This document shows positions 1 through 55,562 of a stretch of 64,000 nucleotides of DNA, in pieces. The notes under the pieces were generated by a model, which was not told the origin of the DNA, did no database searches, and saw nothing but the letters and a program-made list of their open reading frames with translations. A program made the translations under genes and the position numbers. Source of the DNA: Myxococcota bacterium (GTDB lineage Bacteria; Myxococcota_A; UBA796; CAJQPC01); NCBI GenBank assembly GCA_023150845.1, contig JAKLKD010000003.1, forward strand, positions 6,847 to 70,846. Direction: 5' to 3'. Numbering within the stretch: the first letter of the stretch is position 1; the number at the start of each line of letters is the position of its first letter.

Positions 1-1
1 G

Positions 2-973
2 CCCCGGCTGGCGAAGGCGCTCAAGGACGCCGGGATGAAGGCCGTGGGCGTCTCCGTGGACGGCCCGGAGGAGATCCACGACGTGCTCCGGGACAGCGTC
101 GGGAGCTGGCGCTCGGCGATGCGCGCCTTGGAGGTGTGTAAAGAGGTCGGCCTCGTCACCAGCTCCAACACCCAGGTGAACAACCTCAACGCGCACATGC
201 TCCGCGAGATCGGGGCGATGATCAAGAAGACGGGCGTGCGCGTCTGGCGCGTGCAGCTCACCGTGCCCATGGGTCGGGCGGCGGATCGCCCCGAGTGGAT
301 CCTCGATCCCCCGAAGATCCTCGACGTGATCGACACGCTGGCGGCGATGCAGCTCGAAGAGGTCGCCATGGTGCGGGCCAAGGGCCTGCCGCCGGAGCGC
401 GCCTTCAACATCATGTCGTCGAACAACGTCGGCTACTACGGCCCCCACGAGCAGGTGCTGCGCAGCCGCCCCGGCGGCGACGAGGCCTACTGGCGTGGCT
501 GCCAGGCCGGGGTGTACACCATCGGCATCGAGTCCGACGGCACGGTGAAGGGCTGCCCCAGCCTGCCCACCGCGCCGTACACCGGCGGCAAGGTGCGCGA
601 TCTGGGCCTGGAGCAGATCTGGCGGAACGCTGAGGAGCTCAACTTTGTGCGGGAGCGCACGACGGAGGAGCTCTGGGGCTTCTGTAAGACCTGCTACTAC
701 GCCGACATCTGCCGGGCGGGCTGCTCGTTCACCACGCACTGCACCTTAGGCAAACGCGGCAACAACCCCTTCTGTTACCACCGCGCGGCGACGCTCAAGC
801 GCCAGGGCCGCCGTGAGCGCCTGGTGCTCAAGGAGGCCGCCGCGGGCATCCCCTACGACTTCGGGCGCTTCGAGCTCATCGAGGAGGACTGGGACGCGGC
901 GGGCGCTCAGGAGTCCTCGCCGTCGCAGTTGGAGTCGACGCCGTCGCCGTCCACCTCGGGGGCGCCGGGGTAG
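2..973 (+). CDS. radical SAM / SPASM-domain maturase-like protein (5' end cut off by the window edge)
   Basis: The frame-2 ORF stays open to the window edge, with no stop upstream of the Met at 35. The C-terminal half carries a SPASM-type Cys pattern (GCQAGVYTIGIESDGTVKGC ... CKTCYYADICRAGC ... C) as in PqqE/MftC/anSME-type enzymes. The CxxxCxxC core would lie upstream of the window. The last 67 nt overlap array gene P1 convergently. Confidence 0.8.
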   Translation, partial: PRLAKALKDAGMKAVGVSVDGPEEIHDVLRDSVGSWRSAMRALEVCKEVGLVTSSNTQVNNLNAHMLREIGAMIKKTGVRVWRVQLTVPMGRAADRPEWILDPPKILDVIDTLAAMQLEEVAMVRAKGLPPERAFNIMSSNNVGYYGPHEQVLRSRPGGDEAYWRGCQAGVYTIGIESDGTVKGCPSLPTAPYTGGKVRDLGLEQIWRNAEELNFVRERTTEELWGFCKTCYYADICRAGCSFTTHCTLGKRGNNPFCYHRAATLKRQGRRERLVLKEAAAGIPYDFGRFELIEEDWDAAGAQESSPSQLESTPSPSTSGAPG

Positions 974-1233
974 ACGCTGGCGTTGTCATCGTCGCAGTCG
1001 CCGTCGTCGGCGCTGTAGCCGTCGCCGTCTTCGTCGACGTAGCCGCTCTCGGCGACGCCGTAGTCGGTCTCGGGCGCGATCTTGTCGCAGCCCACGAGGC
1101 TGAGGCCCATGAGCGCGGCGGCGGCGGTGGAGCGCAGGCCACACTCGCGGAGCTTGGCGCCGCAGTGAACGCAGACGCAGGACGAGCCCAAGACGTGCTC
1201 GCCACAAGAGGCGCAGGGGATCAGCGCGGGCAT
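907..1233 (-). CDS. array member P1: zinc-ribbon / lipobox / single MopE-like Asp-Cys motif mini-protein (108 aa)
   Basis: MPALIPCASCGEHVLGSSCVCVHCGAKLRECG (6 Cys), then AAAALMGLSLVGC (lipobox-like), then DEDGDGY..GDCDDDNASVYPGA..DGVDSNCDGEDS-stop. GAGG lies upstream of the ATG. Strong paralogy to 11 neighbours. Confidence 0.8.
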   Translation of the reverse strand: MPALIPCASCGEHVLGSSCVCVHCGAKLRECGLRSTAAAALMGLSLVGCDKIAPETDYGVAESGYVDEDGDGYSADDGDCDDDNASVYPGAPEVDGDGVDSNCDGEDS

Positions 1234-1248
1234 GGTTCGCCTCGGGGG

Positions 1249-1689
1249 CTAGGTGTTGTCGTCGCCGTCGCAGTTGGAGTCCACGCCGTCGCCGGGGGTC
1301 TCCGTCGCGCCGGGGAAGACCGCGCCGTCGGTGTCGTCGCAGTCGCCGCCCTCGGCGCTCACGCCGTCGCCGTCTTGGTCCCCGGTGTCGGCGACGCCGT
1401 AGTCCGGGGTGACGGGGCTCGTGTCCTCCTCCTCGACCTCGCTGTCCGCGGCGGAGTCGGCGGAGTCGGCGGTGTCGGCGGTGTCCGCCGTGTCCGGCAC
1501 GCCGTACTTGGGCTGGGGCGCGATGATGTCACAGCCGGGCATGCTCAGACCCATGAGCGCGGCGGCGGCGGTGGCGGCCAAGGTGTGGCGCAGGCCGCAG
1601 TCGCGGAGCTTGGCGCCGCAGTGGACGCAGGCGCAAGAGGCCTCAAGGACGTGCTGGCCGCAGGACGAGCAGGCGATGAGCTGGGGCAT
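1249..1689 (-). CDS. array member P2 (146 aa), with an inserted acidic DTA/DSA repeat linker
   Basis: MPQLIACSSCGQHVLEASCACVHCGAKLRDCG, AAAALMGLSMPGC, DQDGDGV..GDCDDTDGAVFPGA..DGVDSNCDGDDNT-stop. The stop lies 15 nt from the P1 start. Confidence 0.8.
   Translation of the reverse strand: MPQLIACSSCGQHVLEASCACVHCGAKLRDCGLRHTLAATAAAALMGLSMPGCDIIAPQPKYGVPDTADTADTADSADSAADSEVEEEDTSPVTPDYGVADTGDQDGDGVSAEGGDCDDTDGAVFPGATETPGDGVDSNCDGDDNT
1451..1495 (-). repeat. five imperfect 9-nt tandem units inside P2
   Basis: Plus strand reads gcggagtcg gcggagtcg gcggtgtcg gcggtgtcc gccgtgtcc. On the minus strand this encodes the DTADTADTADSADSA stretch. Confidence 0.8.
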
Positions 1690-1698
1690 GGCGTTGAC

Positions 1699-2052
1699 TC
1701 AGGTGTTGGGGTTGCCGTCGCAGTTGGAGTCGATGCCGTCGTCCGCGGCCTCGGCGGCGCCGGGGTACACGCTCGAGTTGTTGTCGTCACAGTCGCCGTC
1801 GGCCACGGTGTAGCCGTCGCCGTCGAGATCCTCAGAGTACCCCGAGTCCGCGAAGCCGTAGTCGGTCTGGATCGGCGCGTCGGTGTCGCTGCCCTCCTTG
1901 TCGCCGCAGGCCGCCAAGGCGAGGCCCATGAGCGCGGCGGCGGCGGTGGAGCGCAGGCCGCAGTCCTTGAGCTTGGCGCCGCAGTGGGCGCAGGCGCAGG
2001 CCGAGGAGAGGACGTGCTGGCCGCAAGCGGCGCAGGCGATGAGCGGGGGCAT
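1699..2052 (-). CDS. array member P3 (117 aa)
   Basis: MPPLIACAACGQHVLSSACACAHCGAKLKDCG, AAAALMGLALAAC, DLDGDGY..GDCDDNNSSVYPGA..DGIDSNCDGNPNT-stop. The stop lies 9 nt from the P2 start. Confidence 0.8.
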   Translation of the reverse strand: MPPLIACAACGQHVLSSACACAHCGAKLKDCGLRSTAAAALMGLALAACGDKEGSDTDAPIQTDYGFADSGYSEDLDGDGYTVADGDCDDNNSSVYPGAAEAADDGIDSNCDGNPNT

Positions 2053-2069
2053 GAGGCGCTCCGAGGAGG

Positions 2070-2393
2070 TCAGGTGTTGTCGTCGCCGTCGCAGTTGGAG
2101 TCGATGCCGTCGTCTACGGTGTCGATGGCGCCGGGGTTGATGGTAGCGTCGTTGTCGTCGCAGTCGTCGGTCTGGGCGTAGTAGCCGTCGCCGTCCTCGT
2201 CATCGTAGCTCACGACGACGCCATACTCAGGCTCAACCTGCAGCACGCAGCCGCCCAGGCTGAGGCCCATGAGCGCGGCCGCGGCGGTGGCGCGCAGCGT
2301 GCAGTCCTTGAGCTTGGCGCCGCAGTGGGCGCAGGCGCAGGCTGAGGCGAGGACGTGCTGGCCGCAGGCGCCGCAGGCGATGAGCGGGGGCAT
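2070..2393 (-). CDS. array member P4 (107 aa from the internal Met)
   Basis: The tracked ORF is 2070..2432. I start it at MPPLIACGACGQHV (cat at 2391-2393) because that aligns with the P1-P3 N-termini. Ends in DEDGDGYYAQTDDCDDNDATINPGAIDTVDDGIDSNCDGDDNT-stop. Confidence 0.75.
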   Translation of the reverse strand: MPPLIACGACGQHVLASACACAHCGAKLKDCTLRATAAAALMGLSLGGCVLQVEPEYGVVVSYDDEDGDGYYAQTDDCDDNDATINPGAIDTVDDGIDSNCDGDDNT

Positions 2394-2409
2394 GACGCGC
2401 TCCGGGGGC

Positions 2410-2718
2410 TCAGGTGTTGTCGTCGCCGTCACAGTTGGAGTCGATGCCGTCGTCTACGGTGTCGATGGCGCCGGGGTTGACGCTGGCGTCGGAGTCGTCG
2501 CAGTCGTCGGCCTGCGCGGCGTAGCCGTCGCCGTCCTCGTCGGTGTAGGCGATGCCGTAGAGGTCTTGGGCGCAGGCGCTCGCGGAGAGCGCGAGGCCCA
2601 TAAACAAGGCCGTCGGGCCGAGCCCACCCCGGCGCACGGCGCCGCCGCAGAAGGCGCAGCGGGCGTTCGGGTCGACGTTGAGCTGCCCGCAGGCGGCGCA
2701 GGAGTAAAGCGTAGGCAT
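2410..2718 (-). CDS. array member P5 (102 aa), 4-Cys ribbon subtype
   Basis: This is the C-terminal part of the 232-aa tracked ORF 2410..3108. The start is set at MPTLYSCAACGQLNVDPNARCAFCGG (cat at 2716-2718). The upstream 130 aa are Ala/Pro/Thr/Arg-rich out-of-family sequence overlapping P6. Ends in DEDGDGYAAQADDCDDSDASVNPGAIDTVDDGIDSNCDGDDNT-stop. Confidence 0.75.
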   Translation of the reverse strand: MPTLYSCAACGQLNVDPNARCAFCGGAVRRGGLGPTALFMGLALSASACAQDLYGIAYTDEDGDGYAAQADDCDDSDASVNPGAIDTVDDGIDSNCDGDDNT

Positions 2719-2734
2719 CGGCGCTCCAGAGCGA

Positions 2735-3070
2735 TCAGGTGTCGTCGCCGCCGTCGCAGTTGGAGTCGATGGTGTCGCCCGCCGTCTCGGTGGCGCCGGG
2801 GAAAACCGTGGCGTCGTCGTCGTTGCAGTCGCCGTCGCGCACGGCGACGCCGTCACCGTCGTTGTCGACGTAGCCCGTGTCCGGCACGCCGTAGAGCGCG
2901 ACGGGGCCGGAGTCGCTGCCGTCTTTGTCGCCGCAGGCCACGAGCGCGAGGCCCATGAGCGCGGCGGCGGCGGTGAAGCGTGTGGCGTTCGGCGCGGCGC
3001 CGCAGCTCGGGCAGGTGTCGGCGTCGGAGAGCACGTGGGCGCCGCAGCGGGCGCAAGAGAGCAGGGGCAT
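2735..3070 (-). CDS. array member P6 (111 aa), 4-Cys ribbon subtype
   Basis: MPLLSCARCGAHVLSDADTCPSCGAAP, AAAALMGLALVAC, DNDGDGV..GDCNDDDATVFPGATETAGDTIDSNCDGGDDT-stop. Confidence 0.8.
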   Translation of the reverse strand: MPLLSCARCGAHVLSDADTCPSCGAAPNATRFTAAAALMGLALVACGDKDGSDSGPVALYGVPDTGYVDNDGDGVAVRDGDCNDDDATVFPGATETAGDTIDSNCDGGDDT

Positions 3071-3171
3071 GGAGACCTCAGGGCTGGGACTAGGGCGACA
3101 AGGCGCACTATACCGCGATCTGAGGCCGTGCCGCGCCTGAGATCGTGATCCGCCGCAGGCCCAGGCCGGGC

Positions 3172-3507
3172 TCAGGTGTTGTCGTCGCCGTCACAGTTGG
3201 AGTCGAGGCCGTCGTCGGTGGTCTCTAAGGCCCCGGGGTTGACCGCGGCGTTGTTGTCGTCGCAGTCGCCGTCACGCACGGCGTAGCCGTCGCCGTCATC
3301 ATCGACGTAGCCCGTGTCGACCACGCCGTAGAGGTCCGAGACGACGGAGTCGCCGCCGTCTTTGTCGCCGCAGGCCACGAGCGCGAGGCCCATGAGCGCC
3401 GCGGCCGCGGTGAGGCGCGTGGGGCTCGGCGCGGCGCCGCAGCTCGGGCAGTGGGCGTCACCGTCGAAGACGTGGGCGCCGCAGCGGGCGCAGGGGCGGA
3501 GGGACAT
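3172..3507 (-). CDS. array member P7 (111 aa from the internal Met), 4-Cys ribbon subtype
   Basis: The tracked ORF is 3172..3615. The start is set at MSLRPCARCGAHVFDGDAHCPSCGAAP (cat at 3505-3507), by alignment with P6 and P8. Ends in DDDGDGY..GDCDDNNAAVNPGALETTDDGLDSNCDGDDNT-stop. Confidence 0.75.
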   Translation of the reverse strand: MSLRPCARCGAHVFDGDAHCPSCGAAPSPTRLTAAAALMGLALVACGDKDGGDSVVSDLYGVVDTGYVDDDGDGYAVRDGDCDDNNAAVNPGALETTDDGLDSNCDGDDNT

Positions 3508-3616
3508 GGCGGGGGACCTCTTGGAGTGGGGGGCGCTCCTTTTTACCATGAGCCGCGGCCAGGTCGTGGCGGGGGCTATCCCCGTGGAAGAATAGTCCCG
3601 ATGTCGGGCGCTCATC

Positions 3617-4012
3617 GTGCTTGTCGTCGGGCGGATGGGCTCTTACCCCGACCTGTGCTCGTCCGCCGGAGTCCATCTGTATCGGGTGGTCCTCTCCGAA
3701 CAGAGCGCGCTCGCTGGACCACATGTCGCCGGTCTCGCGACACGGTTCGGTCCCTCGCTCCCACGCGGCGTGCTCATCGAGGTGAAGCTCAGCGACGACC
3801 CGGGCCACATCAAGCAGGGCTTCGCCGAGGCCATCGTCTACCGCGACGAGCACCGCGCGCTGTTCACCGACGAGCGGGACTGGCCGAAGACGATCCTGGT
3901 CACCTCACGCCCGCTCCTGAGCGAGCCGCGGCGTGGGGATGACGTCATCGCCGTGGACTGGGCGCGCTGGACGCCGGAGGCCGTGCTCGAGGGCATCGTC
4001 TCCGGCTTGTGA
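3617..4012 (+). CDS. hypothetical protein (about 125-131 aa) on the opposite strand, splitting the array
   Basis: Balanced amino-acid composition and clear GC3 bias in its own frame, unlike the Arg/Pro-rich shadow ORFs nearby. No family recognised. The start is uncertain (GTG at 3617 or ATG at 3635). Confidence 0.55.
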   Translation: MLVVGRMGSYPDLCSSAGVHLYRVVLSEQSALAGPHVAGLATRFGPSLPRGVLIEVKLSDDPGHIKQGFAEAIVYRDEHRALFTDERDWPKTILVTSRPLLSEPRRGDDVIAVDWARWTPEAVLEGIVSGL

Positions 4013-4018
4013 GGGGGC

Positions 4019-4357
4019 TCAGGTGTTGTCTTCGCCGTCGCAGTTGGAGTCGATCCCGTCGTCGGGCGTCTCCGTGGCGCCGGGGTTCACGTTCGGATCG
4101 CCGTCATCGCAGTCGTCGCTCTCGGCGTTGTAGCCGTCGCCGTCCTCGTCGATGAACGCCGAGGAGTCGGGCACCCCGTAGGCGGGCTGGATGTCTTTGT
4201 CGCCGCAGGCCACGAGGCCGAGGCCCATCGCCAGGGCCGCCGCCGTCGCGTGCAGCGCGCCGCCGCCGCAGTCGCGGAGCTTGGCGCCGCAGCTCGGGCA
4301 GGCGCAGGAGGTGTCGAGCACATGAACGCCGCAGCGGGCGCAGGGGTGAAGGGACAT
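4019..4357 (-). CDS. array member P8 (112 aa)
   Basis: MSLHPCARCGVHVLDTSCACPSCGAKLRDCG, AAALAMGLGLVAC, DEDGDGYNAESDDCDDGDPNVNPGATETPDDGIDSNCDGEDNT-stop. Confidence 0.8.
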   Translation of the reverse strand: MSLHPCARCGVHVLDTSCACPSCGAKLRDCGGGALHATAAALAMGLGLVACGDKDIQPAYGVPDSSAFIDEDGDGYNAESDDCDDGDPNVNPGATETPDDGIDSNCDGEDNT

Positions 4358-4371
4358 CGGAGGCTCCGGGG

Positions 4372-4788
4372 TCAGCGGTTGTTCTTGCCGTCGCAGTCGG
4401 AGTCTACCCCATCAAACCACCGCTCACGCGCGCCGGGGAAGACGTCGGGCGCGCTGTCGTCGCAGTCGCCTTGGGAGACGAGCACCCCGTCGCCGTCGCC
4501 GTCGAGCTCGGGCGGAGGCTCGACGACGAGCTCCTCGGGCGGAGTGACCTCAGGTGGCGGCATGAGCACGTCCCCGGGCCCGACGCGGTCCATCGGCGGC
4601 ACCCCGTAGGCGGCCTGGAGCTGGTTTGAGCGGTCGGGCTCGTCCGCGCCGACCAAGGTGAGCCCCATGAGCACCGCCGCAGCGCCTCGGGTGAGTTTGC
4701 CCGTCGTGGAGAGGGCGCCACAGCTTGGGCAGGCGCCGGGGCTGGGGGTCAAGAGCGCGCCGCAGCGACCGCAGGGGTGGAGGTGCAT
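4372..4788 (-). CDS. array member P9 (138 aa), variant without the lipobox Cys, Pro-rich linker
   Basis: MHLHPCGRCGALLTPSPGACPSCGA, AAAVLMGLTLVGAD (no Cys), a Pro/Glu linker, then LDGDGDGV..GDCDDSAPDVFPGARERWFDGVDSDCDGKNNR-stop. Confidence 0.8.
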   Translation of the reverse strand: MHLHPCGRCGALLTPSPGACPSCGALSTTGKLTRGAAAVLMGLTLVGADEPDRSNQLQAAYGVPPMDRVGPGDVLMPPPEVTPPEELVVEPPPELDGDGDGVLVSQGDCDDSAPDVFPGARERWFDGVDSDCDGKNNR

Positions 4789-4803
4789 CGTCGGGGCCTC
4801 GGG

Positions 4804-5247
4804 TCAGCGGTTGTTCTTGCCGTCGCAGTCGGAGTCAACACCGTCAAACCAGCGCTCCTTGGCGCCGGGGAGGACGTTGGGGTCGGCGTCGTCACAGTCT
4901 CCGGCCTGGGCGGGAACACCGTCAGCGTCGGCGTCTTGAGCGACGACCACGGGCGGCGGGAGAGGCGTGGCGACGACGCCGTACAGCGGCTCGTCGATCG
5001 GCGGCGGGGGCGGCGGCGGCGGCTCGGGTGGCGGCGGCTCGGGCTCGGGCGGCTCAGGATCGAACACCACACCATACTCTGGCTCAGGGGCCTGACCGGG
5101 ATCATCGGCGCCGAGCAGCGCGAGGCCCATGACAACGGCGGCGGCGGTGCGGGTGAAGGCGCCGCTGAGCTGCCGCCCGCAGTGGGGGCAGACCAAGGCG
5201 GCGCGCTGGACGTGCTGACCGCAGGCAGGGCAGGGGTGGAGCAGCAT
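4804..5247 (-). CDS. array member P10 (147 aa from the internal Met), variant without the lipobox Cys, Pro-rich linker
   Basis: The tracked ORF is 4804..5394. The start is set at MLLHPCPACGQHVQRAALVCPHCG (cat at 5245-5247). Tail is DADADGV..GDCDDADPNVLPGAKERWFDGVDSDCDGKNNR-stop. Confidence 0.75.
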   Translation of the reverse strand: MLLHPCPACGQHVQRAALVCPHCGRQLSGAFTRTAAAVVMGLALLGADDPGQAPEPEYGVVFDPEPPEPEPPPPEPPPPPPPPIDEPLYGVVATPLPPPVVVAQDADADGVPAQAGDCDDADPNVLPGAKERWFDGVDSDCDGKNNR

Positions 5248-5263
5248 CGGCGGGGCCTCGGGC

Positions 5264-5764
5264 TTAGCGGTCTTGTTTGCTGTCGTCGGCGGGCTCGGCG
5301 TCGTCTGGGGCGGAGGCCTCTGGGGTGGGGCCGTCGGTGACGGCCGGCCCCGGCGCCGGGACGGGCGTGACGACGATGCCGTACAGCGGCTCAACGCGGA
5401 TCGGCTCGGGCTCGGGCGGCGGCTCGGGCGGCGGCGTGGGCTCAGGCGGTGGCTCGGGCTCCGGCGGTGGCTCGGGCGGCGGCGGTGGCTCGGGCGGCGG
5501 CGGCTCAGGAGGGGGCTTGGGCCGCTTGGGCCGCTTCTTCTCGGGCACAGGCGGTGGAGGCTCCGGCGCGGGCTGCTCCACCTTGCCGTAGAGGGGCTCG
5601 GGCCGGGGTTCCTCGCCGTGGTCCGCGCCCATCAAGGTGAGGCCCATGACCACGGCCGCCGCGGTGCGGGTGAGCTTGCCGCCGGGGCTCGCCCCGCAGT
5701 GGGGGCAGGCGAGGGCGGTGAGCTGGACGTGCTGCCCGCAGGCGCCGCAGGCGCGGAGGGTCAT
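5264..5764 (-). CDS. array member P11 (166 aa), degenerate: ribbon and hydrophobic segment kept, C-terminal Asp-Cys motif lost
   Basis: MTLRACGACGQHVQLTALACPHCGA, AAAVVMGLTLMGAD, then a very long PEPPPP linker. It ends in ..AEPADDSKQDR with no DCDD/CDG motif. Confidence 0.7.
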   Translation of the reverse strand: MTLRACGACGQHVQLTALACPHCGASPGGKLTRTAAAVVMGLTLMGADHGEEPRPEPLYGKVEQPAPEPPPPVPEKKRPKRPKPPPEPPPPEPPPPPEPPPEPEPPPEPTPPPEPPPEPEPIRVEPLYGIVVTPVPAPGPAVTDGPTPEASAPDDAEPADDSKQDR

Positions 5765-5778
5765 GGGCGCTCCAAGGA

Positions 5779-6123
5779 TCAGGTGTCGTCGCCGCCGTCG
5801 CAGTTGGAGTCGATGCTGTCCCCGGCGGTCTCGGTGGCGCCCGGGAAGACGTTCGCGTCGTCGTCGTTGCAGTCGCCATCCCCGACGGTCACGCCGTCAC
5901 CATCGGCGTCCGCGAGGTACGAGGTGTCGGCCACGCCGTACTCGGGGGCGAAGCCGCTGTCCGAGGGCTCCTTGTCGCCGCAGCCGACCAGCGCGAGGCC
6001 CATGAGCGCGGCGGTCGCGGTGTGGCGCAGCCCGCAGTCGCGGAGCTTGGTGCCGCAGTGGGGGCAAGAGCAGCTGCTCTCAAACACGTGGGTGCCGCAG
6101 TGGGCGCAGCTCGTCATCGGCAT
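5779..6123 (-). CDS. array member P12 (114 aa from the internal Met); promoter-proximal gene of the upstream sub-array
   Basis: The tracked ORF is 5779..6150. The start is set at MPMTSCAHCGTHVFESSCSCPHCGTKLRDCG (cat at 6121-6123), preceded by GAGGAG. Ends in DADGDGV..GDCNDDDANVFPGATETAGDSIDSNCDGGDDT-stop. Confidence 0.75.
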   Translation of the reverse strand: MPMTSCAHCGTHVFESSCSCPHCGTKLRDCGLRHTATAALMGLALVGCGDKEPSDSGFAPEYGVADTSYLADADGDGVTVGDGDCNDDDANVFPGATETAGDSIDSNCDGGDDT

Positions 6124-6163
6124 GGTCGTCTCCTCAGGCTGGATGGTCACGGTGGACGATGGG

Positions 6164-6169
6164 ATTGTA
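6164..6169 (-). promoter_or_regulatory. candidate -10 box (TACAAT on the minus strand) for the P12-P8 sub-array
   Basis: Minus strand reads ttttGGGACTACAATccc about 41 nt upstream of the P12 ATG. The -35 is poor (ccgacc). A related GGGACTATTCT lies upstream of P7 (plus 3589-3599). Confidence 0.35.
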
Positions 6170-6389
6170 GTCCCAAAATCTTGGGGTCGGCGTGGCGACG
6201 GTCCGAGGTTGTGCTACGCTGTTCCCGATGTCGCCCATGAACGCCAACACCCAGACTACGACTACCCTGCCTCTCGGCGGGCTCGTGGTCGTGTCGGCGC
6301 GTTAGCGACGTCCTCACCACCCAGCGCCTCGCCGACGAACGGCGAGGCCCTCGCGGTGTCGTCGCTCGTCGGTCCAACAGGAGACCGAC

Positions 6390-7595
6390 ATGAACAAGCT
6401 CCCTGAAGATCATCGTGTCATCGCTCGCCGCCTCGACCTGCTGCACTTCCAAGAGGAGGCGCCAGGCATGGTGTTCTGGCATCCCCCTGGCTTCACGCTC
6501 CTCCGGGTGCTGGAGGAGGCCTCCCGCGCCGCCTCCGCCCGGGAGGGCTACGTCGAGGTCCGTACACCTCAGGTGCTTCGCGCGCCGATCTGGGCGCAGA
6601 GCGGCCACTGGGAGCACTTCCAGGACGCCATGTTCCGGGTGGGGGACGCCGACGTCCCCGCCGCGCTCAAGCCCGTGAGCTGCCCAGCGCACATCAGCAT
6701 CGTGAACCGACGATCCTTGTCGTGGCGGGAGCTGCCGCTCCGGATCGCGGAGCTCGGCCTCGTGCACCGTGACGAGCAGCAGGGCGCGCTCTGCGGGCTC
6801 CTCCGCCTGCGCCAGTTCACACAAGACGACGGCCACATCTTCTGTGAGCCACACCAGCTCGTCGAGGAGATACGCCGGTTCTGCGCGTCGATCGGGCCGT
6901 TCTACGCGGCCTTCGGCTTTGACCGGGTCGAGGTCGGGCTCTCGACGAGGCCCCCGGCGCGGCTCGGCGACGACGCGGGCTGGGACTTCGCCGAGGCGGC
7001 CTTGGCCGAGGGCGCGGCGCTGGCGGGGCTCCACCCCATGATTCAGCCCGGTGAAGGCGCGTTTTATGGGCCGAAGCTGGAGTTTGTGCTCATCGACGAC
7101 GCCGGACGGCGCTGGCAGTGCGGGACGATGCAGGTGGACCTCGTGATGCCTGAGCGGTTTGACGTGGAGTACGTCGGCCGCGACGGCGCGCGGCGTCGGC
7201 CGGTGATGCTGCACCGGGCCCGGTATGGCAGCCTGGAGCGCTTCATGGGCCTGCTCTTGGAGCATCACCAGGGTCGCCTGCCAGGCTGGCTGGCGCCGGT
7301 CCAGTGCTGGGTGCTGCCGATCAGCGCGGAGCATGAGCCTTGGGCGGAGCACGTCCGGGCGACGCTCGCCGCCGCTGGGCGACGGGTGGAGCTGCGGCCC
7401 TCGGACCAGTCCTTGGGGCGTCGTGTCGCCGAGGCCCACCAGCAGGGCATCCCCGCGGTGCTCGTCGTCGGCGGGCGCGAGGTCGCCGCGCGCTCGGTCG
7501 CCTGGCGTCAGGCCGCCGGGGGCTCGTCGCCGACGCCGCTGGAGGAGGCCGTGGCGCGCCTGAACGCGCTCTGTCGTTGCCCCCTGGAGCCGTGA
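6390..7595 (+). CDS. thrS: threonyl-tRNA synthetase paralog: catalytic core + anticodon-binding domain only (no TGS/editing region)
   Basis: Collinear from residue 1 with the E. coli ThrRS catalytic domain as I recall it. Matches: [25 protein letters not shown] vs [33 protein letters not shown] vs [18 protein letters not shown] vs [22 protein letters not shown] vs [18 protein letters not shown]. The Cys/His/His zinc-ligand positions are kept. 401 aa equals the length of E. coli ThrRS minus its N-terminal ~240 aa. AGGAGA lies 6 nt upstream of the ATG. Confidence 0.88.
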   Translation: [401 protein letters not shown]

Positions 7596-51597: not shown

Positions 51598-52629
51598 TTA
51601 GCCCTCCAGTCCTAGGCCACGAAGGCCCAAGGCGTAGTCCGCCGCGGCAGGCGGGGTCAGCGCGCCGCTCCACACCCAGCTCAGGTCGAGGCACACCGGC
51701 GCCTCTTGTTTGACGCCCCGGATGTACAGCGTGCCGCAGCCGTCGCAGCCCGCGTAGGGGTCGTTGTCGTACTCGCCGTCGCTCTCCAGCGGGTCAAAGA
51801 CGAGGTCGTACCAGAAGGCGTCGGGGTCGCGCAGGCTGATGAAGCCGATGGGCTCGGCGGTGCAGGACTCCGGGGAGGCGCCCGTGGGGCCCTGCAGCGT
51901 GAGGTCCATGTTCACCGAGTCGAAGCGCCCCGCGATGAGGTGATCGAAGAAGTAGACGTTGCCGTTGGCGGCCAAGGTGTCCTGGTCGCCGCTCGTCCAG
52001 CTCAGGTTGAGGTCGGTGCGCCAGCCGCCCGCGGGGCCGTCGGGGAAGGGCAGGGTGCCCGTGACCGTGGCGTCCATGACGCTGGAGTAGACGACGCGGC
52101 GGTAGTCGCCATCGACGACCTGGAGCAAGGAGTCTTCGCCGTCGCCGTCGAGCTCAAAGAGCACGGTGTCGCCTTGGGAGACGACGGCGTCGCCCTCGAC
52201 GCGGCGGGTGGCCTGGGTGGTCTCGCCCGAGGCCTCGTCCTCAGTGACCGAGACGGCGCTCTCCCAGTAGAAGGTGCCGCCGAAGCCGTCGCCTTTGGAG
52301 GTGGTGCAGAGGTCGTACCAGGAGAGGCCGTCGCCCTCATCCGCCATCTCGGGATCGGCAAACCCCGCGTAGAAGCTGGGGCATCCGGGCTCGGCGAGGG
52401 ACAAGGTCTGGGCGTGGCCGAGCCAGGCGGAGCGCGCGTTCACCGAGAGCGCGAGGCCCATGGCCTCGGACATCGCCGCGGGGAAGTCGACGTCGCTCAC
52501 GTCAGGGGGGTCGAGGGGTTTAGGCGTCGGGCCCGGGTCGATGCCCTCCTCGTCTTCAGCGCAGGACGGCGCGAAGCTGAGCAGGCCCAAGAGGCCGATC
52601 CAGGCGGCGCGCGGCAGGCGGGGGCTCAT
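51598..52629 (-). CDS. hypothetical lipoprotein
   Basis: LSFAPSC lipobox; acidic; no family recognised; translationally coupled on both sides. Confidence 0.55.
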   Translation of the reverse strand: MSPRLPRAAWIGLLGLLSFAPSCAEDEEGIDPGPTPKPLDPPDVSDVDFPAAMSEAMGLALSVNARSAWLGHAQTLSLAEPGCPSFYAGFADPEMADEGDGLSWYDLCTTSKGDGFGGTFYWESAVSVTEDEASGETTQATRRVEGDAVVSQGDTVLFELDGDGEDSLLQVVDGDYRRVVYSSVMDATVTGTLPFPDGPAGGWRTDLNLSWTSGDQDTLAANGNVYFFDHLIAGRFDSVNMDLTLQGPTGASPESCTAEPIGFISLRDPDAFWYDLVFDPLESDGEYDNDPYAGCDGCGTLYIRGVKQEAPVCLDLSWVWSGALTPPAAADYALGLRGLGLEG

Positions 52630-53273
52630 TCGTCCTCCTCCTCTTCGATGCCCACGCCGATGGTGAGCAGCCAGCTAAACGTGATGATGTCGCCGCTGCG
52701 CTCGGCCACGAACCAGGGCAGCCAGACCCCCGTGCCGCCGTAGTCGTGCCAGATCACGCCGTCGGCGTCGTAGCCGTAGCGGCGGACCTCACCCTCCTCA
52801 GGCATGTCCGGGTCGCGGCAGGTGGAGGGGTCACCCTCGACCAAGAAGAACTCCACGTCAAAGGCGAAGAGGCAGTCGTCGCAGGCGACCTCGGCCACGT
52901 CACCGATGAGGGACCAGGTGAGGTCGCAGAGCAGCGCCTCCTCTTCGCTGAGCCCGGTGTCGAGCCCCGTCTCAAGCCCCGTGTCGGGGCGCACGCCGTC
53001 GAGGTACTCCCAGACGCGCTGCTCCCCGACGAGGCGCTCGTAAGGCCCGCCGAAGGGGCTCAGCTCCCAGCGCCCCCACTGCTCCAAGGTGAGCGTGTGC
53101 TCCGGCGTGATGTCGAGGCCGGAGTCGGGGCTCGTGTCGATCGGGAAGCTGGAGCTGCCGGTGTCCTCCCAGTCCTCGCTGTCTTGAACAGGGATCGGCA
53201 CCACGCCGTCATCATCGGCGCCCTTGCAGGCCACCGTGAGGAGAATCAGCGAGAGAAGAAGAATTTTCGACAC
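52626..53273 (-). CDS. hypothetical lipoprotein (GTG start)
   Basis: LLTVAC lipobox; acidic; first gene of the six-gene minus-strand run. Confidence 0.55.
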   Translation of the reverse strand: MSKILLLSLILLTVACKGADDDGVVPIPVQDSEDWEDTGSSSFPIDTSPDSGLDITPEHTLTLEQWGRWELSPFGGPYERLVGEQRVWEYLDGVRPDTGLETGLDTGLSEEEALLCDLTWSLIGDVAEVACDDCLFAFDVEFFLVEGDPSTCRDPDMPEEGEVRRYGYDADGVIWHDYGGTGVWLPWFVAERSGDIITFSWLLTIGVGIEEEEDE

Positions 53274-53462
53274 GCGGACCCATCGGTCGTGGGGTGTGCC
53301 GCGGCATCTTGCGGGCGCTCACCGCTCGTCGTGAGCGGTGTTGAAGTTATGAGGGCAGTCTACCACAGCGGCGTCCTTCCGAGTATTTTAAGCTCGTCGG
53401 AAAAAATTCTTCGCGACCCGCTGAAGCGCCCTCCTGCTCAACGCCGTCGCGGCGGAGTCCCC

Positions 53463-55562
53463 ATGAAGCCCCTGCTCCCCTGGCTCACCCTCCTCCTCGT
53501 CGCCTGCAAAGGTGAGGCCGAGGCGCCCCCGACGCTCACGATCACGCCCAGCGCGCTCGACTTTGGCACGGCGCCCGTCGGCGGGGAGTCGGCCCTGGAG
53601 CTCGTCTTGGAGAACTCCGGCGGCGGTCAGATCGACGTGCTCTCCGTGCAGCTCACCGACGGGGACCCCGACGTCTTTGATCTCGACCGCGACGGCAGCT
53701 TGGCGCTCGGCGACGGCCTCTCGCTCACGGTCACCGTCACCTTCACCCCGGAGAAGGAGCAGGTCTACCTGGGGCTCGTGCAGGTGCGCTACGACGACGT
53801 GGACGGCGGGGGCAGCGCGACGGTGAGCCTCACCGGCGAAGGCAGCGCGTCCGAGGCTGACAACGACGCCGACGGTTACCGCGTCGTGGACGGCGACTGC
53901 GACGACAACAACGCCACGATCAACCCCGGCGCGGAAGAGATCTGCGACGGCCGCGACAATGACTGCTCCGGCTCCCCGGGCGGCGACGAGACCGACGCCG
54001 ACGGCGACTCCTGGCTCGTGTGTGAGGGGGACTGCGACGACGGCGACAAGAGCGTCTACCCCGACGCCAAGGAGATCTGCGACGACAAGGACTCCGACTG
54101 CGACGGCAATGAGGCCGACCGCGACGACAGCGACGAGGACGGCTGGAGCATCTGCGACGGCGACTGCGACGACGACGACGACCGCGCCCGGCCCGGCGGG
54201 GTGGAGGTCTGCGACGGCGCCGACAACGACTGCGACGGCGGCGAGGACAACATCGACGCCGACAACGACGGCCACAGCGTGTGCAGCGGCGCGGGGGACT
54301 GCGACGACAACGACCGCCGGGCTTACCCCGTCGTGGTGGACGCCAGCGCCTCCGGCGAAGAGGACGGCACCGACAACAAGCCCTACAACACCATCGACGA
54401 GGGCCTCGCGAACCTCGACGCGGTCTGCCGCACGGTCTGGCTCGCCGCGGGCAGCTACGCCGTGGGGCTCACCTTGGACGGCGAGGAGCTCAACGTCGTC
54501 GGCGAAGGGGTCGATGAGGTCACGCTCACCACGTCCGCGGGCAGCCGCCACTTCGACGTGACCGGCGGCGGGGTCTTGGGCCTCACGACGCTCACGCTCA
54601 GCGGGGCGAGCGCGAGCACCGACGGCGGCTCCATCCGCCTCGTGGACAGCCACGCGATCCTCGACGGCGTGCGCCTGACCGGCAACAGCTCCGCGACGGA
54701 CGGCGGCGCGATCTCCGCCACCTCGTCTACGCTCACGCTCTACGCCGTGGAGCTGCTCGACAACACCGCCGCCGACGACGGCGGCGCGGTCTCGGCGCTC
54801 TCCGCGGAGGTGACCGACAGCGGCTCCTTGTTCTCCGGCAACACCGGGGTGCGCGGCGGCGCCTTGGTCGCCGACTCCTCGACGCTGACGCTCTCCGACT
54901 CCGTGTTCACCGAGAACGCCGCGACGGACAAGGGCGGCGCCGTGGCCGTCATCGCCAGCGGCGGCTTCGTGATCGAGCGCGGGGAGTTCACCCTGAACAC
55001 CGCGGTCAACGGCGGCGGCGGGCTCTCGTTCACCAACGTCTCCGCCGCGGGCTCGACCCTGCGGAACTCCGTCGTGCAGGACAACAACGGCGGCGCCGTC
55101 GGCGGCGGCCTCTCCGTCGAGGGCACCGTCGGGCGCTTCACCGTCGAGAACAACACCCTCGTCGCGAACCAGGCGACCGGCCAGGGCGCCGGGCTCTACG
55201 TCGGCGTCGGCGCGGGCGGGGAGCTCACGATCCTCTCGAACCTCATCTTCCGCGCCCAGGGCTCAAGCGGGCTCTACGTGGACAACGCCGCCGCCCACGC
55301 CGTGAGCTACAACACGGTCTACGCGACGAGCGCAGGGGACAGCGCCAACTTCTCCGGCCCCTTCGCGGCGGGGACGAACGAGAATCGCGCCGAGGATCCC
55401 CTCTTCGTGAGCTTCTCCAACGACCGCGACCCCTCCAACGACGACCTCGATCTCAAGAGCAGCTCCCCCGCCAAAGACAGCGGGCCGCCGGACGCGGCCT
55501 ACAATGACGTGGACAAGACGCGGAACGACCGTGGCCACACCGGCGGCCCCAACAGCAAGTAA
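53463..55562 (+). CDS. large lipoprotein: Ig-like domain + about five MopE-like Cys/Asp metal-binding repeats + right-handed beta-helix
   Basis: LLLVAC lipobox at the internal Met; the upstream 239 codons of the tracked ORF overlap the divergent gene. DADGYRVVDGDCDDNNATINPGAEEICDGRDNDCSG-type repeats, then GGAxxxxxSxLTL beta-helix repeats. Confidence 0.75.
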   Translation: MKPLLPWLTLLLVACKGEAEAPPTLTITPSALDFGTAPVGGESALELVLENSGGGQIDVLSVQLTDGDPDVFDLDRDGSLALGDGLSLTVTVTFTPEKEQVYLGLVQVRYDDVDGGGSATVSLTGEGSASEADNDADGYRVVDGDCDDNNATINPGAEEICDGRDNDCSGSPGGDETDADGDSWLVCEGDCDDGDKSVYPDAKEICDDKDSDCDGNEADRDDSDEDGWSICDGDCDDDDDRARPGGVEVCDGADNDCDGGEDNIDADNDGHSVCSGAGDCDDNDRRAYPVVVDASASGEEDGTDNKPYNTIDEGLANLDAVCRTVWLAAGSYAVGLTLDGEELNVVGEGVDEVTLTTSAGSRHFDVTGGGVLGLTTLTLSGASASTDGGSIRLVDSHAILDGVRLTGNSSATDGGAISATSSTLTLYAVELLDNTAADDGGAVSALSAEVTDSGSLFSGNTGVRGGALVADSSTLTLSDSVFTENAATDKGGAVAVIASGGFVIERGEFTLNTAVNGGGGLSFTNVSAAGSTLRNSVVQDNNGGAVGGGLSVEGTVGRFTVENNTLVANQATGQGAGLYVGVGAGGELTILSNLIFRAQGSSGLYVDNAAAHAVSYNTVYATSAGDSANFSGPFAAGTNENRAEDPLFVSFSNDRDPSNDDLDLKSSSPAKDSGPPDAAYNDVDKTRNDRGHTGGPNSK

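What the first reader, a model, noticed from the sequence alone, without database searches (positions are those of the whole stretch)
907..6123. A folded zinc ribbon sits where the n-region of a lipoprotein signal peptide should be
In nine members (P1-P8, P12) the hydrophobic stretch ends in a lipobox-like L-(V/A/G)-(G/A)-C. Examples are LVGC, LVAC, LAAC and LGGC, with weaker MPGC and ASAC. This stretch is too short for a typical TM helix (about 15 residues between a charged R/T and D/G). Read alone, it is a signal peptidase II signal.

It is preceded by about 30-35 residues carrying 4-6 Cys in zinc-ribbon spacing, not by a short basic n-region. Two readings follow:
- The ribbon is cleaved off with the signal peptide, leaving a lipidated acidic peptide of about 50-60 aa.
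- The proteins are N-in/C-out signal-anchored, with a cytoplasmic Zn ribbon.

P9-P11 replace the Cys with Ala-Asp (LVGAD, LLGAD, LMGAD) and gain long Pro-rich spacers. That is what an uncleaved, anchored variant reaching across the periplasm would look like.
Basis: partly seen in the sequence, partly recalled or inferred. Interest (0 to 1): 0.6.

Follow-up and report, generated by a model that had tools for sequence, protein, structure and literature searches.

The report
Zinc-ribbon-led lipoprotein precursors of a radical-SAM enzyme
Twelve tandem small genes each encode a zinc ribbon, then a lipoprotein-type export signal, then a conserved Tyr-Gly motif, and they sit beside a radical-SAM enzyme related to tyramine "spliceases", so they look like enzyme-modified lipoprotein precursors whose ribbon is a cytoplasmic leader discarded with the signal peptide.

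Summary
Window 907-6123 (minus strand) holds 12 tandem paralogs. Each has an SD-preceded ATG, a CxxC...CxxC zinc ribbon (Pfam hits; AF2 pLDDT about 91), a basic residue and a 13-14-residue Ala/Leu stretch. Nine then carry a canonical lipobox Cys; P9-P11 have Gly-Ala-Asp instead.

Every member has an invariant x-Tyr-Gly motif 5-16 residues after the box. The convergent gene at 1-973 is a radical SAM/SPASM peptide maturase.

Orthologs of that enzyme (50-97% identity, 80 Myxococcota and Acidobacteriota loci) have a ribbon + h-region + YG protein within 2.5 kb in 57 of 80 loci, in all four orientations. No other neighbour is conserved.

Across 151 family representatives:
- 124 match a strict lipobox, at Cys position 39-68.
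- 143 carry [EQ]-P-x-Y-G-V-P-D-T, single or repeated.

The enzyme's best model is TIGR04103 (436 bits, below the cut-off of 725). From memory, that is the family of PlpX, which excises tyramine at X-Y-G.

Best reading: a binary splicease-like system whose substrates are lipoprotein precursors. The ribbon plus signal peptide would act as leader and be removed by signal peptidase II. The chemistry, the lipidation and the ribbon's role are inferred, not shown.

Novelty: a new variant of a known kind.

The parts
1..973 (+). C-terminal about 312 residues of a radical SAM/SPASM peptide-maturase-like enzyme. The gene runs off the left edge of the window. It is convergent with the array and overlaps the 3' end of P1 by 67 nt.
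   Evidence: PF13186 SPASM E 6e-7. Best NCBIfam models are TIGR04103 and TIGR03913. The full-length 430-aa ortholog, 97% identical, is L001:10261-11553; it has CNQACAHC at residues 28-35 and scores 436 bits on TIGR04103.
907..1233 (-). P1, 108 aa. Ribbon aa 7-24, box LVGC aa 46-49 (nt 1087-1098), D-Y-G at aa 57-59 (nt 1057-1065), MopE motif aa 79-104.
1249..1689 (-). P2, 146 aa. Ribbon aa 7-24, weak box MPGC aa 50-53, two sites KYG (Y at aa 62) and DYG (Y at aa 97), MopE motif.
1699..2052 (-). P3, 117 aa. Ribbon, box LAAC aa 46-49, DYG (Y at aa 65), MopE motif.
2070..2393 (-). P4, 107 aa. Ribbon, box LGGC aa 46-49, EYG (Y at aa 57), MopE motif.
2410..2718 (-). P5, 102 aa. Four-Cys ribbon, weak box ASAC aa 46-49, LYG (Y at aa 54), MopE motif.
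2735..3070 (-). P6, 111 aa. Ribbon aa 6-23, box LVAC aa 43-46, LYGVPDT (Y at aa 60), MopE motif.
3172..3507 (-). P7, 111 aa. Ribbon, box LVAC aa 43-46, LYG (Y at aa 60), MopE motif.
4019..4357 (-). P8, 112 aa. Six-Cys ribbon, box LVAC aa 48-51, AYGVPD (Y at aa 60), MopE motif.
4372..4788 (-). P9, 138 aa. Ribbon, LVGA-D in place of the box (no Cys), AYGVPP (Y at aa 61), Pro-rich spacer, MopE variant ending DSDCDGKNNR.
4804..5247 (-). P10, 147 aa. Ribbon, LLGA-D, two sites EYGVVF (Y at aa 58) and LYGVVA (Y at aa 89), Pro-rich spacer, MopE variant.
5264..5764 (-). P11, 166 aa. Ribbon, LMGA-D, two LYG sites (Y at aa 59 and 128), long Pro-rich spacer, no MopE motif.
5779..6123 (-). P12, 114 aa, first gene of the array. 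Six-Cys ribbon aa 6-23, box LVGC aa 45-48 (nt 5980-5991), EYG (Y at aa 62; nt 5935-5943), MopE motif aa 84-109. This is the protein modelled with AF2.
6124..6389 (.). 266-nt divergent intergenic region upstream of P12. It is the presumed promoter region of the array; this is an inference, no promoter scan was run.
   Evidence: Gene layout. The tight 9-17 nt spacing of most downstream genes suggests one transcription unit.

Best explanation
The array encodes substrates of the adjacent radical SAM/SPASM enzyme in a two-component, RiPP-like system.

Proposed course of events (all steps inferred from sequence and context):
1. Each precursor is made in the cytoplasm.
2. Its N-terminal 30 residues fold around zinc.
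3. The enzyme modifies the conserved x-Tyr-Gly-Val-(Pro/Val) site in the disordered stretch just after the signal peptide. [quoted passage not shown]
4. The short Ala/Leu h-region and lipobox send the protein through Sec.
5. Lgt lipidates the Cys. Signal peptidase II cuts before it, which discards the zinc ribbon together with the signal peptide.
6. The Lol system carries the 54-94-residue acidic lipoprotein onward. That protein consists of the ketoamide site plus one Ca/metal-binding MopE-type module.

On this view the ribbon occupies the n-region because it is a leader: a cytoplasmic docking, activation or retention module for the enzyme that never has to cross the membrane.

P9-P11 lack the Cys. 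They would be exported and cut by signal peptidase I, or stay anchored, without lipid.

The varied X residue across the 12 copies (D, K, E, L, A) would give a panel of envelope-tethered ketoamides, plausibly protease inhibitors.

Shown: the sequence features, their conservation, and the gene linkage. Inferred: the chemistry, the cleavage, the lipidation, the role of the ribbon and the biological function.
For: Linkage to the enzyme:
- Orthologs in L004 and L008 (64-65% identity) are also convergent with arrays of 12 and 2 members. The genes beyond the pair differ in each locus.
- Of 80 GTDB loci with an ortholog, 57 have a ribbon + h-region protein within 2.5 kb. Of the 57 loci with full flanks, 42 do.
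- The nearest member is convergent in 31 loci, co-directional downstream in 9, divergent in 8 and co-directional upstream in 7. The median gap is 71 nt.
- No other gene family recurs near the enzyme, so there is no Y protein, protease or transporter.

Enzyme type:
- Full-length hits to TIGR04103 (E 1e-130, 436 bits) and TIGR03913 (393 bits). The next family scores 172 bits.
- PlpX-type spliceases are rSAM/SPASM enzymes that excise tyramine at X-Y-G. Binary systems lack the Y protein, and their leader binds and activates the enzyme (PMC11414181; PMC11002830; PMC11626197; PMC10849128).

Substrate motif:
- Y-G is invariant in all 12 window members.
- Across 151 representatives there are 223 YG against 50 expected from shuffles, and 143 of 151 have at least one. 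The consensus is [PAGV][EQ][PA]-x-Y-G-V-P-[DE]-T.
- The validated PlpA3 site is AAM-YG-VVFP and the engineered tag is PIRPG-YG-LPI (PMC10533398 Table S3). Window P10 has EPE-YG-VVFDP.
- Acidobacteriota orthologs are preceded by a different small protein carrying a single PPYG.
- AF2 places the YG in a low-confidence linker (pLDDT 56-65) between two confident modules.

Lipoprotein signal:
- Lipobox statistics, h-region length and net charge of +1.4 before the h-region.
- 115 of 151 match the PROSITE PS51257 core pattern.
- The lipobox Cys lies a median of 25 residues after the last ribbon Cys, which is a normal signal-peptide length.
- Only 1 of 124 has Lys at +2, the M. xanthus inner-membrane retention signal (PMC3222651).

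Precedent, from established knowledge and not tested here: anaerobic sulfatase-maturing rSAM/SPASM enzymes modify Sec-exported sulfatases before export.
Against: - The enzyme scores below the curated cut-offs of both TIGR04103 (436 vs 725) and TIGR03913 (393 vs 592), so it is a sister clade. Its chemistry is not established.
- No characterised splicease sequence was available for a direct comparison. The equation of PlpX's InterPro family IPR026482 with TIGR04103 rests on my memory.
- In RcsA a DYG site was not spliced. Three window members have DYG as their only site (P1, P3) or as one of two (P2).
- 23 of 80 enzyme loci show no ribbon partner within 2.5 kb. One array (L003) has no rSAM within 10 kb.
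- No signal-peptide predictor could be run. The Cys position (39-68) violates the PROSITE 15-35 rule for every member.
- A crude Hessa-scale sum did not separate signal peptides from TM helices in my from-memory controls.
- Nothing tests whether the ribbon touches the enzyme.
- The hydrophobic helix could itself be the leader helix that binds the enzyme rather than, or as well as, an export signal.
Confidence: 0.55

Rival explanations
1. N-in/C-out signal-anchored proteins. The ribbon stays as a permanent cytoplasmic domain, the hydrophobic stretch is an uncleaved TM anchor, and the acidic part faces the periplasm. This is the common zinc-ribbon-TM-extracytoplasmic layout.
For: Cytoplasmic zinc ribbons joined by a TM segment to extracytoplasmic domains are a known architecture (PMC3924330). 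P9-P11 and about 15 of 151 representatives lack the Cys altogether yet keep the same helix. The crude hydrophobicity sum is inconclusive.
Against: The uncharged stretch has a median of 13.5 residues, too short to span a bilayer as a helix. A Cys preceded by G/A/S at -1 (124 of 124) and Leu at -3 (80 of 124) is conserved across the family without any other explanation. Homologs whose ribbon lacks one or more Cys keep the box. AF2 gives only an 8-residue helix there.
Confidence: 0.2
2. The proteins are radical-SAM substrates, but the chemistry is not tyramine splicing. Alternatives include a Tyr-centred cross-link (cyclophane-type Tyr-x-x), epimerisation or hydroxylation at the Y-G-V-P site.
For: The enzyme is below the TIGR04103 cut-off and scores almost as well on TIGR03913, an uncharacterised maturase family. 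A sub-clade has SDYS or SDYT instead of xYG. DYG was refractory to one splicease.
Against: Cyclophane-forming and other peptide rSAM families do not appear among the 25 best-scoring NCBIfam models listed, the lowest of which scores 58 bits, against 436 for the splicease-associated model. Both Y-G and the flanking V-(V/P) match validated splice sites.
Confidence: 0.25
3. Classical RiPP without Sec export. Ribbon plus hydrophobic helix is purely a leader peptide, with the helix being the enzyme-binding element. It is cut at the small-residue site (G-A or G-C) by a dedicated protease or exporter encoded elsewhere.
For: In binary splicease systems a leader alpha-helix binds and activates the enzyme. 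LVGA-D in P9-P11 resembles Gly-Ala type leader cleavage sites.
Against: No peptidase-containing ABC exporter or protease is conserved near the enzyme. The Cys at +1, Leu at -3 and the basic residue before the helix are lipoprotein-signal features, not double-glycine features. The two-Cys MopE module is typical of exported proteins (11 of 12 hit PF11617).
Confidence: 0.1
4. The adjacency to the radical SAM gene is inherited synteny without function. The array is simply a family of small metal-binding lipoproteins with an odd N-terminal extension.
For: The orientation in the window is convergent, so the genes are not co-transcribed. L003 has 8 members and no rSAM within 10 kb.
Against: The pair recurs at 50-65% enzyme identity with different flanking genes and in all four relative orientations, usually under 100 nt apart. 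The part of the partner that is conserved is the ribbon, signal and YG, not the MopE module.
Confidence: 0.05

Closest known systems
Spliceotide systems: PlpX, PcpX, RhaX and RasX radical SAM/SPASM spliceases with X-Y-G precursors (Morinaka 2018; Scott 2022; PMC11414181; PMC11626197)
   Same: An rSAM/SPASM enzyme whose best model is TIGR04103. Adjacent precursor(s) carry a conserved X-Y-G followed by V-(V/P). It is a two-gene ('binary') layout without a Y protein. Several precursor paralogs occur per enzyme. The N-terminal part is conserved and the C-terminal part is variable.
   Different: The enzyme is below the family cut-off. The leader is not Nif11 or NHLP but a zinc ribbon fused to a lipoprotein-type signal peptide. 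No dedicated protease or exporter is present, so leader removal and export would use the general Sec/Lgt/LspA route. The product would be a lipid-anchored protein rather than a free peptide. The genes are mostly convergent.
Bacterial lipoprotein (signal peptidase II) signal peptides, PROSITE PS51257
   Same: A basic residue, a 13-14-residue uncharged Ala/Leu h-region, then L-[AVTSG]-[GAS]-C.
   Different: The n-region is about 33 residues and contains a folded four- to six-Cys zinc ribbon. The Cys is at position 39-68 instead of 15-35, so rule-based annotation misses it.
Zinc-ribbon-TM-extracytoplasmic domain proteins (Pfam Zn_ribbon_3, DZR and Zn_Ribbon_1 at the N-terminus of single-pass membrane proteins)
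   Same: An N-terminal CxxC...CxxC ribbon followed directly by one hydrophobic segment and an exported C-terminal part.
   Different: The hydrophobic segment is signal-peptide length and ends in a conserved lipobox. The family is genetically tied to a radical SAM enzyme.
Anaerobic sulfatase-maturing enzymes (anSME/AtsB) acting on Sec-exported sulfatases; also the TIGR04133 'rSAM_w_lipo' family (from memory: the model name points to a lipoprotein partner)
   Same: A cytoplasmic rSAM/SPASM enzyme modifies a short motif in a protein that carries an export signal, before export.
   Different: The motif and chemistry differ. Those substrates have ordinary signal peptides without a folded N-terminal module. 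TIGR04133 scores only 140 bits here.
PF11617 Cu-binding_MopE 'putative metal-binding motif' proteins of Myxococcota
   Same: The C-terminal DGDG-x-DCDD-x-PGA-x-E-x-DG-x-D-x-NCDG module is present in 11 of 12 members. AF2 pLDDT is about 91.
   Different: Here there is a single copy on a very small protein. It is dispensable in most of the wider family, which has acidic Thr/Ser-rich linkers with repeated EPEYGVPDT instead.

Membership tests
Lipoprotein signal peptide (SPase II substrate) | Lipobox [LVI][ASTVI][GAS]-C at the end of the h-region | tested here: met
   Nine of 12 window members, with MPGC and ASAC weak. 124 of 151 representatives match a strict pattern; -1 is G/A/S in all 124 and -3 is Leu in 80. 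The PS51257 core pattern matches 115 of 151.
Lipoprotein signal peptide (SPase II substrate) | Positively charged n-region and a short uncharged h-region (about 7-22 residues) | tested here: met
   Net charge of the 8 residues before the h-region averages +1.36. The h-region has a median of 13.5 residues and is 13-14 in 9 window members.
Lipoprotein signal peptide (SPase II substrate) | Cys within residues 15-35 of the precursor (PROSITE PS51257 rule) | tested here: not met
   The Cys is at 39-68, median 48, with 0 of 115 inside 15-35. The excess is the ribbon. The lipobox Cys lies a median of 25 residues after the last ribbon Cys.
Lipoprotein signal peptide (SPase II substrate) | Cleavage by LspA and N-terminal lipidation (globomycin or myxovirescin sensitivity, lipid labelling) | not testable with these tools
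   Experimental. SignalP and LipoP were also unavailable.
Zinc ribbon (Pfam Zn_ribbon_3 / DZR / Zn_Ribbon_1) | Two CxxC knuckles with hairpin spacing and an HMM match | tested here: met
   C7, C10, C21 and C24 are invariant. Zn_ribbon_3 hits 9 of 12 (best E 1.9e-6), DZR 8 of 12, Zn_Ribbon_1 7 of 12.
Zinc ribbon (Pfam Zn_ribbon_3 / DZR / Zn_Ribbon_1) | Folded beta-hairpin knuckle structure | tested here: met
   AF2 gives pLDDT 89-92 over residues 1-30, with strands at 3-5 and 12-14. Most of the compact Foldseek PDB matches (about 25 residues, rmsd about 1 A) are zinc fingers or ribbons, but none reaches E 0.001.
Zinc ribbon (Pfam Zn_ribbon_3 / DZR / Zn_Ribbon_1) | Zinc actually bound | not testable with these tools
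   Needs metal analysis of the purified N-terminal peptide.
Splicease / spliceotide system | Radical SAM CxxxCxxC motif plus a SPASM domain | tested here: met
   The SPASM domain is in the window. CNQACAHC lies in the 97%-identical full-length ortholog from L001; that part lies outside the window.
Splicease / spliceotide system | Membership of the PlpX family model (TIGR04103; equated with IPR026482 from memory) | tested here: not met
   It is the best-scoring model and covers positions 5-384 of 412, but scores 436 bits against a cut-off of 725. TIGR03913 scores 393 against 592. The enzyme is a related clade, not a member.
Splicease / spliceotide system | Adjacent precursor(s) with a conserved X-Y-G site | tested here: met
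   12 of 12 window members, 143 of 151 representatives, and a 4.4-fold excess of YG over shuffles. The flanks resemble validated sites.
Splicease / spliceotide system | [quoted passage not shown] | not testable with these tools
   Needs co-expression and mass spectrometry.
Single-pass N-in membrane anchor with cytoplasmic zinc ribbon | A hydrophobic segment long enough to span the bilayer (about 18 or more residues), uncleaved | tested here: inconclusive
   The length argues against it (median 13.5; 13-14 in 9 of 12 window members). The rough Hessa-scale sum (median +5.2) did not separate my from-memory control TM helices from signal peptides.
PF11617 Cu-binding_MopE motif | HMM match above the gathering score | tested here: met
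   11 of 12 members, best E 5.1e-10. P1 scores 37.9 bits against a cut-off of 27. P11 lacks the motif.

The most novel reading that the evidence does not exclude
A zinc ribbon placed ahead of a lipoprotein signal peptide is a previously unrecognised kind of RiPP leader. It would dock or activate a cytoplasmic radical SAM splicease, or hold the precursor back from Sec until it is modified. It would then be thrown away by the housekeeping signal peptidase II. In that way ordinary lipoprotein biogenesis serves as the leader-removal and export machinery. The mature products would be outer-membrane or surface-tethered proteins carrying ketoamide warheads. The 12-gene array would be a diversified panel (X = D, K, E, L, A) of envelope-bound protease inhibitors in a predatory Myxococcota lineage.
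Probability: 0.3. Interest if true: 0.85.

Novelty: new variant of a known kind. Interest (0 to 1): 0.7.

Why it matters
Three reasons, if the reading holds.

1. It would show that a folded metal-binding domain can occupy the n-region of a Sec/SPase II signal. Such precursors escape rule-based lipoprotein annotation because the Cys lies beyond position 35.

2. It would join two fields. A radical-SAM, RiPP-style backbone modification would be delivered by the general lipoprotein pathway, with no dedicated protease or exporter. [quoted passage not shown] This family predicts where to look (the membrane lipoprotein fraction) and what the leader-removal step is.

3. Ketoamides are protease-inhibitor pharmacophores. 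A tandem set of lipid-anchored variants suggests a self-protection or prey-interaction function in Myxococcota.

Cultured carriers of the enzyme exist, so experiments are possible: Enhygromyxa salina, Plesiocystis pacifica SIR-1, Polyangium sp. and Paraliomyxa miuraensis.

Tried and rejected
- An exact look-up of P1 in the contig index found nothing. A 99% identical homolog (P0002) gave the context instead.
- NCBIfam has no model for the small proteins.
- I considered that the rSAM in L004 might be an anaerobic sulfatase maturase, because a sulfatase gene follows it. I rejected this: the enzyme is 65% identical to the window's enzyme and TIGR03942 scores only 58 bits.
- I looked for a conserved Y protein/RRE, protease or transporter near the enzyme in 80 loci. 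None was found. The second-largest cluster appears, judged from one example ORF spanning the enzyme on the opposite strand, to be antisense ORFs of the enzyme gene. A Ser/Thr kinase appears in only 19 loci.
- Large MopE-repeat lipoproteins next to some orthologs (L022, L041, L029) have YG only inside DGDGYG repeats, so I did not count them as substrates.
- The ThrRS-like gene and the 235-aa ORF flanking the array are confined to the window's own lineage and are not part of the system.
- A crude Hessa-scale TM estimate proved uninformative.
- A PDB sequence search found no close structure; the best hit was SkfB at E 1e-15.
- The Foldseek hits are not statistically significant.
- A homolog search with the enzyme returned only generic 'radical SAM protein' names.
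- Scott et al. 2022 (Chem 8:2659) is not held. No held supplement contains a splicease sequence. I therefore could not check whether this Myxococcota precursor type was already catalogued, nor compare directly with PlpX.
- Literature searches for a zinc ribbon together with a lipobox, or a splicease together with a lipoprotein, found nothing relevant.

Full report
**What is there**

Window 907-6123 carries 12 tandem genes on the minus strand. Eleven of the 12 start codons have a GGAG or GAGG at -9 to -13. Most genes are 9-17 nt apart, so the N-terminal Cys-rich part is translated and is not an annotation artefact.

The alignment (A1) shows invariant C7, C10, G11, C21, C24 and G25, which form the two CxxCG knuckles. 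It also shows invariant A39, M42, G43 and L44 in the hydrophobic stretch, invariant Y58 and G59, and the Asp/Cys skeleton of the C-terminal motif.

Pfam finds Zn_ribbon_3, DZR or Zn_Ribbon_1 at the N-terminus (9, 8 and 7 of 12). It finds PF11617 (Cu-binding_MopE, 'putative metal-binding motif') at the C-terminus in 11 of 12. NCBIfam has no model for these proteins.

An AlphaFold2 model of P12, built with a 48-sequence alignment, gives two confident small modules. The ribbon covers residues 1-30 at pLDDT about 91. The MopE module covers residues 71-114, also at about 91. They are joined by a low-confidence region (pLDDT 56-65) that holds an 8-residue helix (the h-region), the box and the Y-G site. 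Most compact Foldseek matches of the N-terminal about 26 residues are zinc fingers or ribbons at about 1 A rmsd. None of them reaches E 0.001.

The boxes are LVGC, MPGC, LAAC, LGGC, ASAC, LVAC (three times) and LVGC. P9-P11 have LVGA-D, LLGA-D and LMGA-D, plus Pro-rich spacers. The uncharged stretch is 13-14 residues in nine members.

The pattern is not a peculiarity of this window. A profile search found 95 relatives, all from Myxococcota-type metagenome bins. I pooled these with members found in fetched loci and reduced them to 151 representatives below 80% identity. Among these:

| Feature | Result |
|---|---|
| Strict lipobox at the end of the h-region | 124 of 151 |
| Residue at -1 | G/A/S in all 124 |
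| Residue at -3 | Leu in 80 of 124 |
| h-region length | median 13.5 residues |
| Net charge of the 8 preceding residues | mean +1.36 |
| Cys with a looser box | about 9 more |
| Gly-Ala-Asp clade (P9-P11 type) | about 15 |

The PROSITE PS51257 core pattern matches 115 of 151. The Cys sits at position 39-68, so none satisfies the 15-35 rule. Counted from the last ribbon Cys, the box Cys is a median of 25 residues away, which is an ordinary signal-peptide length.

Homologs whose ribbon lacks one or more Cys (P0062, P0066, P0065) keep the box. An exhaustive HMMER scan of 1.84 billion cluster representatives, using only the N-terminal 69 residues, returned many further 75-260-residue proteins. 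These have the same order of ribbon, 'MGLALAGC'-type box and EPEYGVPDT repeats.

First, every member carries x-Tyr-Gly 5-16 residues after the box. P2, P10 and P11 carry it twice.

Second, the gene at the left edge (1-973, plus strand) is the C-terminal three quarters of a radical SAM/SPASM enzyme. It is convergent with the array and overlaps P1 by 67 nt.

A near-identical contig (L001) supplies the full 430-residue protein, with CNQACAHC at residues 28-35 and no N-terminal RRE domain. Its best NCBIfam models are:
- TIGR04103, 'nif11-class peptide radical SAM maturase 3': E 1e-130, 436 bits, cut-off 725.
- TIGR03913, 'GDL motif peptide-associated maturase': 393 bits, cut-off 592.
- The next family scores 172 bits.

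**Is the adjacency functional?**

Two unrelated metagenome contigs with arrays of 12 and 2 members (L004, L008) also end in a convergent ortholog of the enzyme (64-65% identity). The genes beyond differ: an LpxL-like acyltransferase, a sulfatase and an alcohol dehydrogenase.

A scan of GTDB species genomes with the enzyme gave 80 loci at 48-97% identity. Most are Nannocystaceae, Polyangia and other Myxococcota, including Enhygromyxa salina, Plesiocystis pacifica SIR-1 and Polyangium. A few are Acidobacteriota.

- A ribbon + h-region ORF lies within 2.5 kb in 57 of 80 loci. With a YG-type site also required, it lies there in 42 of the 57 loci that have full flanks.
- The nearest member is convergent in 31 loci, co-directional downstream in 9, divergent in 8 and co-directional upstream in 7.
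- The median gap is 71 nt.
- There are usually one or two copies. The 12-15-copy arrays of the window's lineage are an expansion.
- No other gene family recurs near the enzyme.

Linkage that survives changes of orientation and of flanking genes is the signature of a functional pair.

In the more distant loci the MopE module is absent. What stays is the ribbon, the box and one to five copies of [PAGV][EQ][PA]-x-Y-G-V-P-[DE]-T. There are 223 YG against 50 expected from shuffles, and 143 of 151 proteins have at least one.

In two Acidobacteriota loci the enzyme is instead preceded by a 77-80-residue soluble protein with a single PPYG. This points to Y-G as the feature the enzyme clade follows.

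**Comparison with what is known**

Spliceases (PlpX and relatives) are rSAM/SPASM enzymes. [quoted passage not shown] Later work found hundreds to thousands of such clusters. Many are 'binary', without the Y protein, and in these a leader helix binds and activates the enzyme. Ketoamide products inhibit Ser and Cys proteases (PMC11414181; PMC11002830; PMC11626197; PMC10849128; PMC9811515).

The validated PlpA3 site reads AAM-YG-VVFP and the engineered tag reads PIRPG-YG-LPI (PMC10533398 Table S3). Window P10 reads EPE-YG-VVFDP, and the family consensus is x-YG-VP.

The system therefore works like a binary spliceotide system. Formal membership of the PlpX model fails the curated cut-off. I could not compare with a characterised splicease sequence, and the link between PlpX's InterPro family IPR026482 and TIGR04103 is from memory. 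The chemistry is therefore an inference, which I put at roughly 0.55-0.65.

**Why a ribbon in the n-region**

The n-region of a signal peptide stays on the cytoplasmic side, so a folded domain there does not obstruct translocation of what follows. A radical SAM enzyme must act in the cytoplasm, before export.

The conserved N-terminal part behaves like a RiPP leader: it is conserved, while the C-terminal part varies. I therefore propose that ribbon plus signal peptide is the leader. It would serve for docking or activation, or for delaying export. Signal peptidase II would remove it in one cut, which also explains the absence of a dedicated protease or exporter.

Pre-export modification of Sec substrates by rSAM/SPASM enzymes has a precedent in anaerobic sulfatase maturation. 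That is established knowledge and was not tested here.

Only 1 of 124 members has Lys at +2, the M. xanthus inner-membrane signal (PMC3222651). Onward transport to the outer membrane or beyond is therefore plausible but unproven.

**P9-P11**

These keep the ribbon, the same 13-residue h-region and the Y-G sites, but lack the Cys. V/L/M-G-A followed by Asp fits the -3/-1 rule for signal peptidase I. I leave both possibilities open.

**Rivals**

- A permanent N-in anchor (0.2).
- Radical-SAM chemistry other than splicing (0.25).
- A classical leader cut by an unlinked protease, without Sec export (0.1).
- Coincidental synteny (0.05).

**Limits**

- No signal-peptide predictor, no complex prediction and no experiment was available.
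- 23 of 80 enzyme loci lack a detectable ribbon partner nearby, and several of those contigs are truncated.
- One array (L003) has no enzyme within 10 kb.
- The key survey paper (Scott et al. 2022) could not be read. The enzyme-YG association in Myxococcota may therefore already be catalogued.
- I found no description of the zinc-ribbon-plus-lipobox precursor in the searchable literature.

**Verdict**

The thing itself is best described as a splicease-like two-gene system whose substrates are zinc-ribbon-led lipoprotein precursors. That makes it a new variant of a known kind and of fairly high interest.

Noticed in passing
window 907-6123 (e.g. P1 C19 and C31; P12 C18 and C30) and family-wide: Two extra Cys flank the second knuckle: a CxC at the third ribbon Cys, and a Cys about 7 residues after the fourth. 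They co-occur almost perfectly, with 32 representatives having both, 117 neither and 2 only one. This suggests they pair with each other or form an added ligand pair.
   Followed up: partly
window 3617-4012 (+), inside the 511-nt gap between P8 and P7: A 131-aa ORF on the opposite strand has no Pfam or NCBIfam hit. It is absent from every related locus, including the near-identical contig L001, where the corresponding genes are about 110 nt apart. It may be a lineage-specific insertion.
   Followed up: partly
window 6390-7595 (+): A 401-aa threonyl-tRNA-synthetase paralog lacks the N-terminal TGS and editing region (it matches TIGR00418 positions 170-562 only). It is divergent from the first array gene. 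It occurs only in the window's own lineage, at about 90-92% identity, so it is not part of the conserved pair.
   Followed up: partly
window 907-973, and loci L009-L088: The radical SAM gene and the last array gene overlap tail-to-tail by 67 nt. Convergent packing is the commonest arrangement (31 loci), and the gaps printed for convergent partners are mostly 0-34 nt. This is unusual for an enzyme-substrate pair and could mean antisense or terminator-level coupling.
   Followed up: no
L082:7632-7997 (+) and L083:7683-7976 (+): In two Acidobacteriota loci the enzyme ortholog (48-50% identity) is preceded by a 77-80-aa Lys/Ala-rich soluble protein with one PPYG motif and no ribbon or signal. This is a second precursor class for the same enzyme clade.
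   Followed up: no
L049:7134-7956 (+), P0054, P0058: A sub-clade of ribbon-lipobox-MopE proteins has SDYS or SDYT where the others have xYG.
   Followed up: no
window 4372-5764 compared with L001:5512-7339: The Cys-less Gly-Ala-Asp members number three in the window and four in the closely related contig L001, which has 13 members in all. This sub-group therefore varies in copy number. It was seen only in the window's lineage.
   Followed up: partly
window 52581-55559 (+): A stop-to-stop reading frame of about 990 codons contains four MopE-type motif repeats and is unrelated to the array's N-terminal architecture.
   Followed up: no
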